The notes under the pieces: model-generated
What the model saw: the letters and a program-made list of their open reading frames with translations, nothing else
Databases searched by the model: none
Told to the model about the DNA's origin: nothing
Part shown: piece by piece, positions 36,748 through 40,563 of the stretch
Layout of the letters: every line of letters begins with the position of its first letter
Position numbering within the stretch: the stretch's first letter is position 1
Made by a program: the position numbers and the translations under genes
DNA from: an uncultured Gammaproteobacteria bacterium
Lineage (GTDB): Bacteria; Patescibacteriota; Patescibacteriia; UBA11705
Direction of reading: 5' to 3'
NCBI GenBank assembly: GCA_964413735.1
Contig: CAYPSS010000001.1
Coordinates: 140,679-204,678 of the forward strand
DNA: 64,000 nucleotides

Positions 36748-37087
36748 ATGGATCTCTTAATATAAGAGAAGTGTTAGGCGAAAATAATTACAAAATTTAA
36801 AATTAAGAGGAACTCCCCCAAAAAAATGGTTGATTTAAGCTATCAAGCATTAATTTAATTGTGGTAATGAAGTTCATGGTAATTGTTATTTTTGCTAGAA
36901 TTAGGATAAAATACTTGTAATTGGATTTTCGTTCTAATACTTCCTTAACTTTTATTTATTTATTAACTAGGTGAATTTTAACACAGAAAATATTTATTGA
37001 CAAGTATTTGATGTTTTTTATGCAAAATAAGGAAAATTATTTTTTTGTTGACTTGTTCGAAAAAAGTATTACAATGAGGATAATTTA

Positions 37088-38728
37088 ATGGGTTCTTTAC
37101 AACCTCTAACGGAGGATATAACAATGGGTTGGCGAAAACGACATTTGCTTGGAATCACTGAATTTACTGTTGATGAAATGGCTTACATCATGCGAAAAAG
37201 TCGGGAAGTGGAAATTGCTTTGCAACGACACGATCAAAGAGGGTATCAGTTTATCACTGATCCTGATGTGGTAGTGGGTAAGGCGATGTTTGAAGACAGC
37301 ACCAGAACACGAATCAGTTTTGAAGCAGCTGCTCGTTTATGCGGTGCGGTTGTGGAAGGTTTTGATTCAGCCAAAGGCACTTCTTATTCCAATAAAGGTG
37401 AGTCAACGGCGCATACCATGATTATGCTAAATGAATATCGAGCCGTGGTTGCTTTTGTTAGACATCATCTTGATGGTGCTCCACGTCATATTGCGCAAGT
37501 AATGCAACAGCGACAAATGTGTGGTGCACCTTTTACCGGAATCATTAACGCTGGCGATGGGAAGCATGAACATCCCACTCAAACCATTTTGGATCGTTAC
37601 ACGATTTTGAAAGCATTAAATCGTTTGTCGCCAGATAGTGATCATCAATATTCATTGCGTGGATTAACTATTTTGCTCGCTAATGATCTGAAATATGGGC
37701 GAGTTCCACATTCCAATGTCAAGGATTTTGCCCGTGATAAAGTGCATTTTATTTTTGTGGCTCCACCGCAAATGCAAATGCCGGAAATGTATCTTCGTTA
37801 TATTGAAGAGTGTGGCAGCACTTATGAGATGCATGATCGTTTGGATGATGAAGTTTTGCATCGGCCTGATGTTGTCTGTATGTTCCGTAGTCAGTTTGAA
37901 AGAATGCCTCCGGAAATTCAAGCGGAATTACGGGCGACCAGAAATGATTTTATTATGACACCGGAAAAAGTAAAAGCCATGAAACGCGAAGCGATTTTGC
38001 TTCATCCTTTGCCGATTCCGCGCTGGGATCCGGAAATTCATCCGTTGGTTGATAATTTATCGCAAGCCATGTATTTTGAACAAGCCGGTAATGGTATTCC
38101 GACCAGAATTGTGGAAATTGCTTTAACGGCCGGATATTTGGGCGAAGATTTTGAGGGCCAAACTTTTGTGGAAGAAACAGAAGAAGATATTTTCTTTACC
38201 CAGCGTCCGCATGTGGCGCGAGAGCATGATGGTTTGCACAGTATTCGTCCGATTCAAGATGGGGTGGTAATTGATCATTTGCCACCCGGTGAAGAAATCA
38301 CTTTGCTCATGATGCTTCATCATCGAAAAGGCGATGAACATCGAATTGCGACGGTGGAAAAGAAAAACCATCCCGGACAATACAAAGGAATGTTGATGTT
38401 GCCGGGCCGTGAGCTGACGATTGATGAATTGCGATTGGTTGGGGCGCGCGTGGGTGGACGGTTAACGCATGGTGAACCGGTAACCGTCAATACCATTCGT
38501 GGCGGACAAGTGGTGCAAAAATTGGATTTGCAAATGCCGCGTGCAGTGGTAGGGCTTGGTTCATGTAATAATATTATTCGTGATGCGCAAGGTAATGTCA
38601 TGGGTGGTTGTATTGCCCACCCGTATTTCAATGAACATGCGACGCCTCATTTTGTACGCGTGGCGGAAAATCTTTATCGTTGTTGGTATTGTGACCAACT
38701 GCATCAAGCCAGTGAAATTTTTAGCTAA
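37088..38728 (+). CDS. pyrB: aspartate carbamoyltransferase catalytic domain fused to PyrI-like regulatory domain
   Basis: 546 aa; STRTR, HPTQ, RSQFER, HPLP motifs (1-330), then PyrI-like IQDGVVIDHLPPG and C-terminal C..C/CWYC zinc domain; alternative start 37124 (MGWRK) after SD acggagga. Confidence 0.75.
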   Translation: MGSLQPLTEDITMGWRKRHLLGITEFTVDEMAYIMRKSREVEIALQRHDQRGYQFITDPDVVVGKAMFEDSTRTRISFEAAARLCGAVVEGFDSAKGTSYSNKGESTAHTMIMLNEYRAVVAFVRHHLDGAPRHIAQVMQQRQMCGAPFTGIINAGDGKHEHPTQTILDRYTILKALNRLSPDSDHQYSLRGLTILLANDLKYGRVPHSNVKDFARDKVHFIFVAPPQMQMPEMYLRYIEECGSTYEMHDRLDDEVLHRPDVVCMFRSQFERMPPEIQAELRATRNDFIMTPEKVKAMKREAILLHPLPIPRWDPEIHPLVDNLSQAMYFEQAGNGIPTRIVEIALTAGYLGEDFEGQTFVEETEEDIFFTQRPHVAREHDGLHSIRPIQDGVVIDHLPPGEEITLLMMLHHRKGDEHRIATVEKKNHPGQYKGMLMLPGRELTIDELRLVGARVGGRLTHGEPVTVNTIRGGQVVQKLDLQMPRAVVGLGSCNNIIRDAQGNVMGGCIAHPYFNEHATPHFVRVAENLYRCWYCDQLHQASEIFS

Positions 38729-38735
38729 AATTAAA

Positions 38736-38758
38736 ACCTCGAAAATCGAGGTTTTTTT
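38736..38758 (+). terminator. intrinsic terminator after pyrB-pyrI fusion (cctcgaaaatcgagg + T7)
   Basis: perfect 6-bp stem + T-tract. Confidence 0.65.
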
Positions 38759-38962
38759 GTGCTCAAAGTTCAATAATTCGTATATTCGTGGTTTTTGTAT
38801 ATTTGTTTTCATATTTTTTACTCAGACTCTGAAACAAGTTCAGAGTGAGATAAAAAACTTTTCACTTTCACACTCGTTATGCTTGTCCTTATTGACAACT
38901 AAAAATATTATGTTAAGATAGTCAATCCGCCCAGAGCGGAGGTTCTTTGACTGGAGGTTGGT
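38759..38962 (+). repeat. about 205-bp upstream cassette (hairpin actctgaa/ttcagagt, TTGACA-N17-TAAGAT promoter, 5'UTR hairpin, SD), copy 1
   Basis: about 97% identical to 39653..39858. Confidence 0.8.
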
Positions 38963-39616
38963 ATGGGAGAAGTAGTAAGATTGATTAAGTGTCCGATTTG
39001 CAGAAAAACATTTTCTGGTAGAGACGTGTTTAAATCACACATTATGGATTGTAAAAAAAATCAAAATGTCTTGTTTGTAAAAAATGAATTTATGGATATG
39101 TTTTCTCCTGGGACTTGTATTTGGGTCCATCGTCCAGCATTGGAGAAGGATTATCCTCAATTTAGGGAACAGGTATATGCTTTTTTGAATGCAAACAATT
39201 ACATTGCTGGTCAGATCTTATTTTCAAATTGTGATATCCAGTTCTTAACGGAAGAAACATCACCAGATAATAAGAGAAAAAGAAAGCAATTTATTAAGAT
39301 GGTTTTTACTTTGGTGATTTGGTTCCCGTATAATGATCGCGATGATTATGATTATACAAATGGAGAAGATTTGGCGCTTAGTTTGTCAGCAACTTTTTCT
39401 GGACAATTTCATACTATTCAGAAATCTAAGAGGTTTGTTAAGTTGAGTACACGAACATGTTACCCAGAAAAACGTTATTTTGAAAGTGATTGTGGAATTA
39501 TCGTTATTTATGATAAAGACACAAGGGCACAAATTTATTTTGCCCGCCAAGCCTCTGATGTCAGAATGGACACTAATGCCTTTAGTGATTTCGTAGAAGA
39601 GATAATTCCTAAGTAA
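38963..39616 (+). CDS. N-terminal C2HC zinc-finger protein, family D (217 aa)
   Basis: IKCPICRKTFSGRDVFKSHIMDC (C-x2-C-x12-H-x3-C); paralog of 39859..40563 (about 25% identity). Confidence 0.55.
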   Translation: MGEVVRLIKCPICRKTFSGRDVFKSHIMDCKKNQNVLFVKNEFMDMFSPGTCIWVHRPALEKDYPQFREQVYAFLNANNYIAGQILFSNCDIQFLTEETSPDNKRKRKQFIKMVFTLVIWFPYNDRDDYDYTNGEDLALSLSATFSGQFHTIQKSKRFVKLSTRTCYPEKRYFESDCGIIVIYDKDTRAQIYFARQASDVRMDTNAFSDFVEEIIPK

Positions 39617-39652
39617 AAAACAAATTAGGCCAAGACAATGTCTTGGTTTTTT

Positions 39653-39858
39653 GTGCTCAAAGTTCAATAATTCGTATATTCGTGGTTTTTGTATATTTGT
39701 TTTCATATTTTTTACTCAGACTCTGAAACAAGTTCAGAGTGAGATAAAAAGCTTTTCACTTTCACACTCGTCATGCTTGTCCTTATTGACAACTAAAAAT
39801 ATTATGTTAAGATAATCAATCCGCCCAGAGCGGAGGTTCTTTGACAATGGAGGTTTGT
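39653..39858 (+). repeat. about 205-bp upstream cassette, copy 2
   Basis: near-identical to 38759..38962; starts right after terminator ccaagacaatgtcttgg+T. Confidence 0.8.
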
Positions 39859-40563
39859 ATGGGGAAAATGCTAACTAAGTTGTTTAGATGTCCTAATTGC
39901 AATCAGCCATGTTATGATGCTGAAAGTTTGCATGAACATAAAAAGACTTGTTCTCAATATAACTACATGAGGAATTTTTACGATAGAGTGATGAAAGAAT
40001 TTCGTTCGGAAGGTTGTTTGCTTGTTTCTCGTAGTGTGGTAGAAAAGGAATTTCCCCAATTGGCTTCCCAGGGATATTGCCATATCAATGCGGTTAATCA
40101 AGTGGCTTGTGAAATTTTGCATTTTGATTGTGATTGTCGAGTGGTTAAAAATAGTAAGAAAAAAAGGGTTGCCAATCATCGAGTACAGAAGGGCGTTTCC
40201 TCTGATATACCTATTTTTAGGCTTAAGTTGACTTTGATTGTTTGGTTCCCTTCATCTCCTGATAAAATGTTTTGTGATGGGAAGGATCAAGCTTTTAAAT
40301 TTGAAGCCAATTATCAGGGATCGGTAGATGAATTGTTTAAGGAACCGGATTTGCGGTATTTGTATGAATATGATGGCTGGGGTCCTGGTCGTGTGCAAGG
40401 GTTTGTTTGTGATGATGGTATCCGTTTCACCTTGTTGTCGGTGGGAAGTTTGGCTGATATTTTCCATGAAAACAACGCGAGAAAACGGGCGAAAATGGGG
40501 AGTGATAGAGATTATCACATGACTTCTCCACGAATGATTTTTTTTGATCGTCATATCCGATAA
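39859..40563 (+). CDS. N-terminal C2HC zinc-finger protein, family D (234 aa; start MGKMLTKL after SD ggaggt)
   Basis: FRCPNCNQPCYDAESLHEHKKTC; track ORF starts 18 nt earlier. Confidence 0.55.
   Translation: MGKMLTKLFRCPNCNQPCYDAESLHEHKKTCSQYNYMRNFYDRVMKEFRSEGCLLVSRSVVEKEFPQLASQGYCHINAVNQVACEILHFDCDCRVVKNSKKKRVANHRVQKGVSSDIPIFRLKLTLIVWFPSSPDKMFCDGKDQAFKFEANYQGSVDELFKEPDLRYLYEYDGWGPGRVQGFVCDDGIRFTLLSVGSLADIFHENNARKRAKMGSDRDYHMTSPRMIFFDRHIR

What the first reader, a model, noticed from the sequence alone, without database searches (positions are those of the whole stretch)
37088..38728. Single polypeptide fusing an ATCase catalytic domain to a PyrI-type regulatory domain, with no other pyrimidine genes nearby
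The 546-aa ORF carries all ATCase catalytic motifs (STRTR, HPTQ, RSQFER, HPLP). It continues without a stop into a domain matching the PyrI regulatory chain: allosteric-domain start IQDGVVIDHLPPG, then a C-terminal zinc domain with C...C and CWYC. The canonical arrangement is separate pyrB and pyrI genes assembling as c6r6. A covalent fusion is uncommon and fixes 1:1 stoichiometry. The gene has two stacked promoters (TTGACA at about 36998 and TTGACT at about 37051) and is isolated from pyrC/pyrD/pyrE/pyrF in this window. This raises the question of whether the host has a complete de novo pathway or uses the enzyme differently.
Basis: partly seen in the sequence, partly recalled or inferred. 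Interest (0 to 1): 0.6.

Follow-up and report, generated by a model that had tools for sequence, protein, structure and literature searches.

The report
Fused catalytic-regulatory aspartate carbamoyltransferase (PyrBI)
This gene encodes the pyrimidine-pathway enzyme aspartate carbamoyltransferase with its regulatory subunit joined onto the same chain, an arrangement known since 1998 and common in metagenomes, so it is a real but ordinary gene from a small-genome (CPR/Falkowbacteria-like) bacterium.

Summary
The ORF at 37088..38728 is real. It is a single chain: ATCase catalytic domains, a roughly 36-residue linker, then a full PyrI regulatory chain. All catalytic residues and all four zinc cysteines are conserved. 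The protein is identical in three independent assemblies, so the fusion is not an artefact.

The true start is probably ATG 37124, giving 534 aa. The architecture is not new:
- Reviews list class B ATCases as "fused or unfused", citing Thermotoga maritima (Chen 1998).
- NCBIfam has a "bifunctional" model, NF009916.
- I found about 160 full-length fused proteins among the hits.

The window protein belongs to a divergent Falkowbacteria-like clade. That clade scores far below the NF009916 cut-off. It also has its own insertions, including a Cx14C first zinc knuckle instead of Cx4C.

No other pyr or car gene lies in the 64 kb. Solitary placement is typical of fused pyrBI, though: 17 of 19 fused loci of 8 kb or more were solitary, against 1 of 28 unfused pyrB loci. 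The rny|pyrBI|rpsA order is kept in three Falkowbacteria lineages.

I could not test whether the host has the rest of the pathway. Verdict: a new member of a known kind, of low interest.

The parts
37124..38728 (+). pyrBI coding sequence from the most likely start (534 aa plus stop)
   Evidence: Closest homologues P0002, P0003, P0004 and P0270 start at the equivalent of M13. GGAGGA lies 7 nt upstream. AF2 pLDDT is below 50 for residues 1-9.
37088..37123 (+). In-frame upstream 12 codons of the mechanical ORF, probably 5' leader rather than protein. Contains the motif GGTTCTTTACA (37091-37101).
   Evidence: The -10 hexamer ends at 37075, only 12 nt before ATG 37088. The equivalent stretch in L001 has no ATG. 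In L005 it is a separate 19-codon uORF.
37048..37075 (+). Promoter-like site TTGACT-16-TACAAT
   Evidence: 10 of 12 matches. A TTGACT hexamer with a nearby -10-like hexamer is also present upstream of the orthologues in L001 and L005.
37111..37116 (+). Shine-Dalgarno GGAGGA for the 37124 start
   Evidence: Read directly from the sequence. GGAGG sits at the same place in L001 and L005.
37139..37609 (+). Carbamoyl-phosphate-binding domain (residues 18-174; STRTR 71-75, S99, K103, R125, HPTQ 162-165)
   Evidence: Pfam OTCace_N, 87.3 bits. These residues are invariant in 116 homologues. Mapping to E. coli residues is.
37661..38107 (+). Aspartate-binding domain (residues 192-340; R205, R267, Q269, HPLP 306-309)
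   Evidence: Pfam OTCace, 52.5 bits. Residue conservation. Foldseek gives a target TM-score of 0.87-0.94 to solved ATCase catalytic chains.
38132..38239 (+). Linker (residues 349-384) with the conserved motif G-E-D-F-E-G (352-357)
   Evidence: GxDFxG occurs in 96 of 162 fused-length homologues. G349, G352, D354 and F355 are at least 90% conserved in alignment A1. The linker is modelled at pLDDT 86-97.
38240..38530 (+). PyrI allosteric (nucleotide-binding) domain (residues 385-481)
   Evidence: Pfam PyrI, 36.5 bits, above its cut-off. The C-terminal profile matches solved PyrI chains. Equivalents of E. coli r-chain D19, H20, N84 and K94 are conserved; K60 is not.
38531..38725 (+). PyrI zinc domain (residues 482-546). 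Cys codons lie at 38564, 38609, 38681 and 38690. The clade-specific insertion is residues 494-507 (38567-38608), giving Cx14C instead of Cx4C.
   Evidence: The four Cys are invariant. Cx4C occurs in 139 of 160 fused proteins; Cx14-15C occurs in P0001, P0002, P0004, P0005 and P0121, and the alignment shows the same insertion in P0003. The PDB profile match covers this domain.
38733..38760 (+). Intrinsic-terminator-like hairpin and T-run, 5 nt after the stop codon
   Evidence: 10-bp stem, 3-nt loop, then a T-run.
36997..37002 (.). Distal TTGACA hexamer, within a block TTGACAAG conserved in three lineages. More plausibly the -35 of the divergent rny promoter on the - strand.
   Evidence: The - strand reads TTGTCA-17-TAAAAT with TG, 10 of 12 matches; no + strand hit was reported. 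The block is conserved in alignment A3.

Best explanation
The gene encodes a class B aspartate carbamoyltransferase in which the regulatory chain (PyrI) is joined through a conserved linker of about 36 residues to the C-terminus of the catalytic chain (PyrB).

The enzyme makes N-carbamoyl-L-aspartate from carbamoyl phosphate and aspartate. [quoted passage not shown]

By analogy with the E. coli c6r6 holoenzyme and the fused T. maritima enzyme, six chains should assemble. The catalytic parts would form two trimers with active sites shared between chains. The allosteric domains would pair as three dimers, and the zinc domains would clamp the trimers. Nucleotide binding in the PyrI part would then tune activity.

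The gene is a resident, vertically inherited, monocistronic unit with its own promoter-like site, Shine-Dalgarno sequence and terminator. It lies in a Falkowbacteria-like (CPR/Patescibacteria) genome.

Shown here: the architecture, residue conservation, the fold, synteny and how widespread the fusion is.

Inferred: the hexameric assembly, nucleotide regulation, and that the host uses the enzyme for its own pyrimidine synthesis.
For: Domain content and end-to-end alignment to the 'bifunctional' model NF009916. TIGR00670 (aspartate carbamoyltransferase equivalog) scores 241.4 bits against a cut-off of 236.95.

Every catalytic residue is present and invariant across 116 fused homologues (cross-check). 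These include S99 and K103, whose E. coli equivalents are contributed by the neighbouring chain of a trimer.

The PyrI assignment holds over both subdomains, and the four Zn cysteines are invariant.

The AF2 model of the whole chain has mean pLDDT 94.2 and pTM 0.92, with an ordered linker. The catalytic half superposes on solved ATCases with a target TM-score up to 0.94.

Precedent for the fused form comes from two reviews citing Chen et al. 1998.

The protein is 58-61% identical to its Falkowbacteria orthologues. That falls within the 51-87% range of the flanking housekeeping genes, and the gene order rny|pyrBI|rpsA is the same. GC3 is in the genomic range.

A related fused gene (P0013) sits 4 nt downstream of a dihydroorotase gene.
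Against: No other pyrimidine or carbamoyl-phosphate gene lies in the 64 kb.

A preprint reports that 93% of Patescibacteria genomes examined lack de novo nucleotide pathways. A complete pathway in this host is therefore not a safe default.

The equivalent of E. coli regulatory-chain K60 is Met. The first zinc knuckle, whose E. coli counterpart lies at the regulatory-catalytic contact (from my memory of the E. coli structure), carries a 10-residue insertion. Regulation may therefore differ from the E. coli model.

The protein fails the curated cut-offs of NF009916 (243 against 800) and TIGR00240 (35 against 149).

No biochemical data exist for this clade.
Confidence: 0.8

Rival explanations
1. 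Stand-alone or repurposed ATCase. The host, like most CPR bacteria, lacks the rest of the de novo pathway. The enzyme then serves another purpose. It might make carbamoyl-aspartate for exchange with a partner cell. It might instead run in reverse, so that carbamoyl phosphate can feed a carbamate kinase for ATP.
For: No pyr or car gene in 64 kb, nor within 10 kb either side of the orthologues in two other Falkowbacteria lineages. 93% of Patescibacteria genomes lack de novo nucleotide synthesis, and pathway genes are scattered across the phylum.
Against: Solitary placement is the norm for fused pyrBI in all lineages sampled: 17 of 19 loci of 8 kb or more. In E. coli the pyr genes are also unlinked (established knowledge). 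A nucleotide-binding regulatory domain has been retained under constraint, which fits feedback control of biosynthesis. Some Patescibacteria do carry a full pyrD-E-F-C-carA-carB-pyrB operon. No carbamate kinase was seen in the window.
Confidence: 0.12
2. Fused ATCase whose PyrI part is only a structural clamp. The regulatory half keeps the zinc-domain scaffold but no longer binds or responds to nucleotides.
For: The E. coli K60 equivalent is Met or another non-basic residue throughout the fused families. There are clade-specific insertions in the allosteric domain (VGGRLTHGEP region) and in the zinc knuckle. PyrI_C and TIGR00240 score below their cut-offs.
Against: Equivalents of D19, H20, N84, V91 and K94 are conserved, and several of them are invariant across 116 sequences. 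The title of the T. maritima paper says the fused enzyme is allosteric.
Confidence: 0.12
3. Artefactual fusion. Separate pyrB and pyrI genes were joined by a sequencing or assembly frameshift, or by loss of a stop codon.
For: None found.
Against: The 546-aa product is identical in three independent runs. The same single-chain architecture and the conserved linker motif GxDFxG occur in many lineages. The linker is modelled with high confidence.
Confidence: 0.01
4. A different carbamoyltransferase (ornithine, putrescine or another acceptor) that happens to carry a PyrI-like tail.
For: OTCase models give weak partial hits, as expected within the superfamily.
Against: The aspartate-specific residues (R205, R267, Q269 and the HPLP loop) are conserved. 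The best models and the best PDB hits are all ATCases.
Confidence: 0.02

Closest known systems
Thermotoga maritima PyrBI (Chen et al. 1998, J Bacteriol 180:6389; cited in PMC4581275 and PMC6022934)
   Same: One polypeptide with the catalytic chain at the N-terminus and the regulatory chain at the C-terminus. The paper's title reports that it forms an allosteric enzyme. It is classed as a class B ATCase with a 'fused' regulatory subunit.
   Different: The window protein comes from a CPR bacterium and carries clade-specific insertions.
NCBIfam NF009916 (PRK13376), bifunctional ATCase catalytic/regulatory subunit
   Same: The alignment runs end to end (residues 16-545 against model positions 6-523 of 525), with the same domain order, linker and four cysteines.
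   Different: The score is 243 bits against a cut-off of 800. Of the sequences tested, only P0132, which clusters with proteins annotated as Spirochaetia, passed (808); P0093 and P0097 came close at 764 and 772. The window protein is about 30% identical to those.
Unnamed fused family of about 498 aa, annotated as from Myxococcota, 'Deltaproteobacteria', Acidobacteria and Woesearchaeota (e.g. P0006, P0017, P0040)
   Same: These are the nearest relatives outside the Falkowbacteria-like clade, at 35-41% identity. They share the linker motif and a solitary gene placement.
   Different: They have the canonical Cx4C knuckle. They lack the insertions after the HPTQ helix, in the allosteric domain and in the knuckle, which make the window protein about 36 residues longer.
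E. coli ATCase holoenzyme c6r6 (separate PyrB and PyrI)
   Same: Same catalytic residues, same two-subdomain regulatory chain with a 4-Cys zinc site, and a pyrBI unit unlinked to the other pyr genes.
   Different: E. coli has two genes and two chains. Here there is one chain with fixed 1:1 stoichiometry. The K60 equivalent is not conserved and the zinc knuckle is longer. No pyrL-type leader or attenuator was recognised (no Rfam hit).

Membership tests
Aspartate carbamoyltransferase catalytic chain (TIGR00670 / Pfam OTCace_N + OTCace) | Scores above the curated cut-offs of the family models | tested here: met
   TIGR00670 scores 241.4 against 236.95. OTCace_N scores 87.3 against 29.9. OTCace scores 52.5 against 29.4.
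Aspartate carbamoyltransferase catalytic chain | Carbamoyl-phosphate and aspartate ligands (E. coli S52, T53, R54, T55, S80', K84', R105, H134, Q137, R167, R229, Q231, L267) | tested here: met
   All are present: S71, T72, R73, T74, S99, K103, R125, H162, Q165, R205, R267, Q269, L308. All of these except T72 (at least 90% conserved) are invariant in 116 homologues.
Aspartate carbamoyltransferase catalytic chain | ATCase fold | tested here: met
   AF2 pLDDT 94.2. Foldseek against the PDB gives E 1.6e-27 and a target TM-score of 0.87-0.94 to ATCase catalytic chains.
Aspartate carbamoyltransferase catalytic chain | Enzymatic activity with aspartate | not testable with these tools
   Needs an enzyme assay.
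PyrI regulatory chain | Allosteric-domain model (Pfam PF01948) | tested here: met
   36.5 bits against a cut-off of 25, residues 385-481 covering model positions 2-92 of 93.
PyrI regulatory chain | Zinc-domain model (Pfam PF02748) and the stand-alone equivalog TIGR00240 | tested here: not met
   PF02748 scores 15.8 against 23.4. TIGR00240 scores 34.8 against 148.55. The shortfall coincides with the 10-residue knuckle insertion and with general divergence.
PyrI regulatory chain | Homology over both subdomains to solved PyrI chains, with four zinc-binding cysteines | tested here: met
   Profile A4 against the PDB matches 12 PyrI sequences and nothing else, with E 2.7e-27 to 3.7e-34 over chain residues of about 3-148. 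C493, C508, C532 and C535 are invariant.
PyrI regulatory chain | Nucleotide (CTP/ATP) binding | tested here: inconclusive
   Equivalents of D19, H20, N84, V91 and K94 are conserved; the K60 equivalent is Met. Binding itself cannot be tested here.
NF009916 bifunctional PyrB/PyrI equivalog | Score at or above the curated cut-off (800 bits) | tested here: not met
   242.8 bits, although the alignment is end to end. P0132 scores 808.
Fused class B ATCase (T. maritima type) | Catalytic and regulatory chains on one polypeptide, in the order catalytic-linker-regulatory | tested here: met
Fused class B ATCase (T. maritima type) | Assembly equivalent to c6r6, with allosteric kinetics | not testable with these tools
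   No multimer prediction or coordinates were available. The active-site residues contributed by a neighbouring chain (S99, K103) are conserved, which fits a trimer.

The most novel reading that the evidence does not exclude
In this Falkowbacteria-like lineage the fused ATCase may be the only pyrimidine-pathway enzyme kept. It would then work outside a complete pathway, for example in metabolite hand-off with a host cell, or in reverse to feed carbamoyl phosphate to ATP synthesis. The clade-specific Cx14C zinc-knuckle insertion at the regulatory-catalytic contact would give it a different allosteric coupling from all characterised ATCases.
Probability: 0.1. Interest if true: 0.55.

Novelty: new member of a known kind. 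Interest (0 to 1): 0.2.

Why it matters
The significance is modest. The finding adds a divergent, CPR-specific clade to the known fused (PyrBI) class B ATCases. It also shows that the fused form is far more widespread in uncultivated bacteria and DPANN archaea than the single biochemical precedent suggests.

Two things could interest specialists:
1. No fused ATCase has a solved structure. The ordered, conserved GxDFxG linker and the enlarged zinc knuckle would show how the textbook allosteric machine tolerates covalent coupling.
2. A conserved ATCase in a phylum that mostly lacks nucleotide synthesis marks lineages that either kept or regained pyrimidine autonomy. That is checkable once the whole genome is inventoried.

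Tried and rejected
- Reading Chen et al. 1998 (PMC107728): the paper is not held, so I relied on two reviews.
- Inventorying the host genome:
  - The genome-contig scan with P0001 returned only unfused archaeal ATCases and not the window's own genome.
  - Walking beyond the window ends via TsaD and FtsH look-ups found no record.
  - The look-up of P0001 returned only short Logan contigs, not the 318,699-bp NCBI contig.
  - Searching with the dihydroorotase next to P0013 gave no hit on a contig whose length matches the Falkowbacteria contigs.
It recovered no close clade members, but it was useful for the neighbourhood statistics.
- Foldseek against afdb50 was unavailable, so there is no full-length comparison with named fused models.
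- Recent horizontal transfer was rejected. The gene has the highest GC of the 48 ORFs (0.441), but its GC3 (0.358) is within the genomic range. Synteny and divergence match the neighbouring genes.
- A riboswitch, PyrR site or leader family was looked for with Rfam at gathering threshold: no hit in the window.
- PHROGs, PADLOC and Pfam gave nothing for the two downstream ORFs.
Full report
**What is there.** The window has an uninterrupted ORF at 37088..38728 on the + strand, 546 aa.

Pfam places four domains:
- OTCace_N at residues 18-174.
- OTCace at residues 192-340.
- PyrI at residues 385-481, above its cut-off.
- PyrI_C at residues 508-544, below its cut-off (15.8 against 23.4 bits).

NCBIfam gives two relevant results. 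The aspartate carbamoyltransferase equivalog TIGR00670 scores above its cut-off (241.4 against 236.95). The 'bifunctional catalytic/regulatory subunit' model NF009916 aligns end to end (16-545 against 6-523 of 525) but scores only 243 bits against a cut-off of 800.

**Is the C-terminal half really PyrI?** Yes. I built a profile from the last 171 residues and the same region of 17 homologues. It matches only PyrI regulatory chains in the PDB, over both the allosteric and the zinc subdomains, with E-values from 3.7e-34 to 2.7e-27.

The four zinc cysteines (C493, C508, C532, C535) are invariant in alignments of 20 and of 116 fused homologues. The weak PyrI_C score has a simple cause. The first knuckle is Cx14C instead of the usual Cx4C, because of a 10-residue insertion (IIRDAQGNVM). 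P0001-P0005 and P0121 all carry it in the alignment. The regex count gives Cx14-15C in P0001, P0002, P0004, P0005 and P0121, whereas 139 of 160 fused proteins have Cx4C.

**Is the catalytic half intact?** Yes. Every residue that binds carbamoyl phosphate or aspartate in E. coli ATCase has its counterpart: S71, T72, R73, T74, S99, K103, R125, H162, Q165, R205, R267, Q269 and the HPLP loop. All of these except T72 (at least 90% conserved) are invariant across 116 homologues.

S99 and K103 correspond to residues that, in E. coli, reach into the active site of the neighbouring chain. This fits a trimeric catalytic core.

**Structure.** An AlphaFold2 model built on the 116-sequence alignment has mean pLDDT 94.2 and pTM 0.92. 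The linker is ordered (pLDDT 86-97), and only residues 1-9 fall below 50.

The catalytic half superposes on solved ATCase catalytic chains with a target TM-score of 0.87-0.94. No PDB chain covers both halves, so no fused ATCase appears to have been solved. The tools return no coordinates, so I could not check which catalytic surface the zinc domain touches.

**Not an artefact.** The identical 546-aa product is called on contigs from three different sequencing runs. Orthologues at 58-62% identity from JGI, NCBI and ENA assemblies have the same single-chain architecture.

**Start codon.** The real start is probably ATG 37124 (M13), giving 534 aa. Four lines of evidence agree:
- The closest homologues, including a member of the same 90% cluster, begin at the equivalent Met.
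- GGAGGA lies 7 nt upstream of 37124.
- The best promoter-like site ends at 37075, only 12 nt before ATG 37088. A transcript from it would have almost no leader for that ATG.
- The first residues are modelled as disordered.

The stretch between 37088 and 37123 corresponds to untranslated leader in the orthologue of L001. In L005 it is a separate 19-codon uORF that ends in a TGA overlapping the pyrBI ATG.

**Promoters and terminator.**
- The proximal TTGACT-16-TACAAT (37048-37075) scores 10 of 12. Similar hexamers precede the orthologues.
- The distal TTGACA (36997-37002) has no acceptable -10 on the + strand. On the - strand it reads TTGTCA-17-TAAAAT with a TG extension. It lies in a block conserved in three lineages, so it may belong to the divergently transcribed RNase Y gene.
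- Promoter-like matches are common in this AT-rich DNA (21 found against 12.8 expected). These assignments are predictions.
- A hairpin with a T-run follows the stop codon at 38733-38755.

**Is the fusion unusual?** No.
- Two reviews of the transcarbamylase family state that the dodecameric, regulated class of bacterial ATCase has regulatory subunits that are either 'separated or fused'. Both cite Chen et al. [quoted passage not shown]
- NCBIfam curates a model for the bifunctional protein.
- Nearly all of the best 120 hits in the 5.8-billion-protein collection are proteins of about 500-545 aa with both halves. The names their sources give them include Myxococcota, 'Deltaproteobacteria', Acidobacteria, Spirochaetia, Woesearchaeota and Falkowbacteria.
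- 57 of the best 150 representatives at 50% identity are of fused length. In all, 162 fused-length proteins were collected, and 160 of them carry the Cx(n)C...CxxC pattern.
- A linker motif GxDFxG is present in 96 of the 162. In a rough neighbour-joining tree of the catalytic domain, without bootstraps, fused proteins fall mostly outside the large clade of unfused ones. Both points are consistent with one old fusion that then diversified. I did not test this rigorously.

**Where the window protein sits.** It belongs to a small clade with P0002-P0005 and P0121. One of these, P0003, is annotated 'Candidatus Falkowbacteria bacterium'.

Besides the zinc-knuckle insertion, the clade has extra residues after the HPTQ helix (about 10 residues, SPDSDHQYSL) and in the allosteric domain (VGGRLTHGEP region). 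It is about 35-41% identical to the family of about 498 aa. It is about 30% identical to proteins annotated as Spirochaetia, which are the group that reaches or approaches the NF009916 cut-off (P0132 at 808 bits; P0093 at 764; P0097 at 772). It is therefore a new, divergent member of a known kind, not a member of the curated equivalog.

**Genomic setting.** The window looks like a CPR/Patescibacteria genome at 36.5% GC. It encodes rpoB, rpoC, gyrA, recA, ftsK, groEL, nusA and a type IV pilus ATPase, with many ORFs lacking any Pfam hit.

No pyr or car gene is present:
- Pfam scans of all 48 ORFs of 150 aa or more found none.
- tblastn with PyrC, PyrD, PyrE, PyrF, CarA and CarB from a Patescibacteria operon found nothing in any frame.

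The order ClpP...VanW-Hsp20...YmdB...RNase Y | pyrBI | S1...MBL-GyrA is conserved in two other Falkowbacteria lineages. PyrBI identity to those lineages (58-61%) lies within the range of its neighbours (51-87%).

The gene's GC (0.441) is the highest of the 48 ORFs, but its GC3 (0.358) is ordinary. The gene is thus a long-resident, vertically inherited part of this lineage.

**Does solitary placement mean anything?** Probably not.
- Among loci fetched from metagenomes, 17 of 19 fused pyrBI loci of 8 kb or more have no pyr or car neighbour. In contrast, 27 of 28 unfused pyrB loci of that size do, usually pyrC-carA-carB. The loci are not phylogenetically independent, and sensitivity is limited to tblastn with one query set.
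- The fused genes of P0021 and P0040 are also solitary.
- Exceptions exist. P0013 lies 4 nt after a dihydroorotase gene, and L053 and L065 have pyrC with pyrE or pyrF nearby.
- In E. coli, too, pyrBI is unlinked to the other pyr genes (established knowledge).

**The open question.** A 2026 preprint reports that 93% of Patescibacteria genomes examined lack de novo nucleotide synthesis, and that pathway genes are scattered across the phylum. At least one Patescibacteria MAG carries a complete pyrD-E-F-C-carA-carB-pyrB operon, with an unfused pyrB.

I could not reach the rest of this host's genome. Whether the pathway is complete here is therefore undecided. The enzyme and its regulatory half are strongly conserved, which makes ordinary feedback-controlled biosynthesis the most likely role. 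I put about 0.1 on the enzyme working outside a full pathway.

**Mechanism.**
- Shown: the chain has everything needed for ATCase catalysis and a complete PyrI module with a zinc site, held by an ordered, conserved linker.
- Inferred by analogy with E. coli and T. maritima: six chains assemble into two catalytic trimers bridged by three pairs of allosteric domains, with 1:1 stoichiometry fixed by the fusion.
- Inferred: nucleotides bind the C-terminal half and shift activity.
- Uncertain: the K60 equivalent is lost, and the enlarged knuckle lies where, in my memory of the E. coli structure, the regulatory chain touches the catalytic chains. The details of regulation may therefore differ.

**Verdict.** The interpretation that this is an uncommon arrangement with a telling genomic isolation is not supported. 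The finding is a new member of a known kind and of low interest.

Noticed in passing
window 38753-38951 and 39647-39845; ORFs 38963..39616 and 39841..40563: There is a 199-nt direct repeat, 98% identical. Each copy sits directly upstream of one of two ORFs (217 and 240 aa). The ORFs are only 26% identical paralogues, and each begins with a CxxC...HxxxC zinc-finger-like motif. Each repeat carries a TG-extended TTGACA-16-TAAGAT site and a small hairpin. Near-identical upstream regions in front of very diverged genes is odd. The ORFs have no Pfam, PHROGs or PADLOC hit and no counterpart in the syntenic loci L001 and L005.
   Followed up: partly
window 37091-37101, 38941-38951, 39835-39845; L001 9954-9964: The motif GGTTCTTT(G)AC occurs in the pyrBI 5' leader of the window (as GGTTCTTTACA) and of the P0003 lineage (GGTTCTTTGAC). 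It also occurs at the 3' end of both 199-nt repeats, between the promoter-like site and the Shine-Dalgarno of the two downstream ORFs. This could be a shared regulatory site or chance. Matches in the window as a whole are not significant: 6 with at most 1 mismatch against 2.6 expected.
   Followed up: partly
L005 9942-10001: In the P0004 lineage, the ATG equivalent to window 37088 opens a 19-codon uORF (MCSLQITFDSSPQEDKGGH). Its TGA stop overlaps the pyrBI ATG (TGATG). In the window the same ATG is in frame with pyrBI, and in L001 there is no ATG. It is a possible leader peptide or translational coupling, but it is not conserved.
   Followed up: partly
L027-L106 (metagenome loci): There is a strong contrast in gene neighbourhood. 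Fused pyrBI is solitary in 17 of 19 loci of 8 kb or more. Unfused pyrB is next to pyrC, carA, carB or pyrD in 27 of 28. The loci are not phylogenetically independent.
   Followed up: partly
L023 7271-16426 (GCA_043812335.1, Patescibacteria group bacterium): A Patescibacteria MAG carries a complete, contiguous pyrD-pyrE-pyrF-pyrC-carA-carB-pyrB operon with an unfused 305-aa PyrB. At least two different ATCase types therefore exist within the phylum.
   Followed up: no
L007 839-3800: In the contig carrying P0013 (36% identical, 545 aa), a dihydroorotase gene ends 4 nt before the fused pyrBI. The nearest relative of that dihydroorotase is annotated as Woesearchaeota.
   Followed up: partly
window 36975-37003, - strand: TTGTCA-17-TAAAAT with a TG extension lies about 230 nt upstream of the RNase Y start on the - strand. 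The block TTGACAAG is conserved in three lineages.
   Followed up: partly
whole window: The window's own sequence was not found in the species-representative genome collection by peptide-pattern scan. No tRNA genes and no Rfam family at gathering threshold occur in the 64 kb.
   Followed up: no
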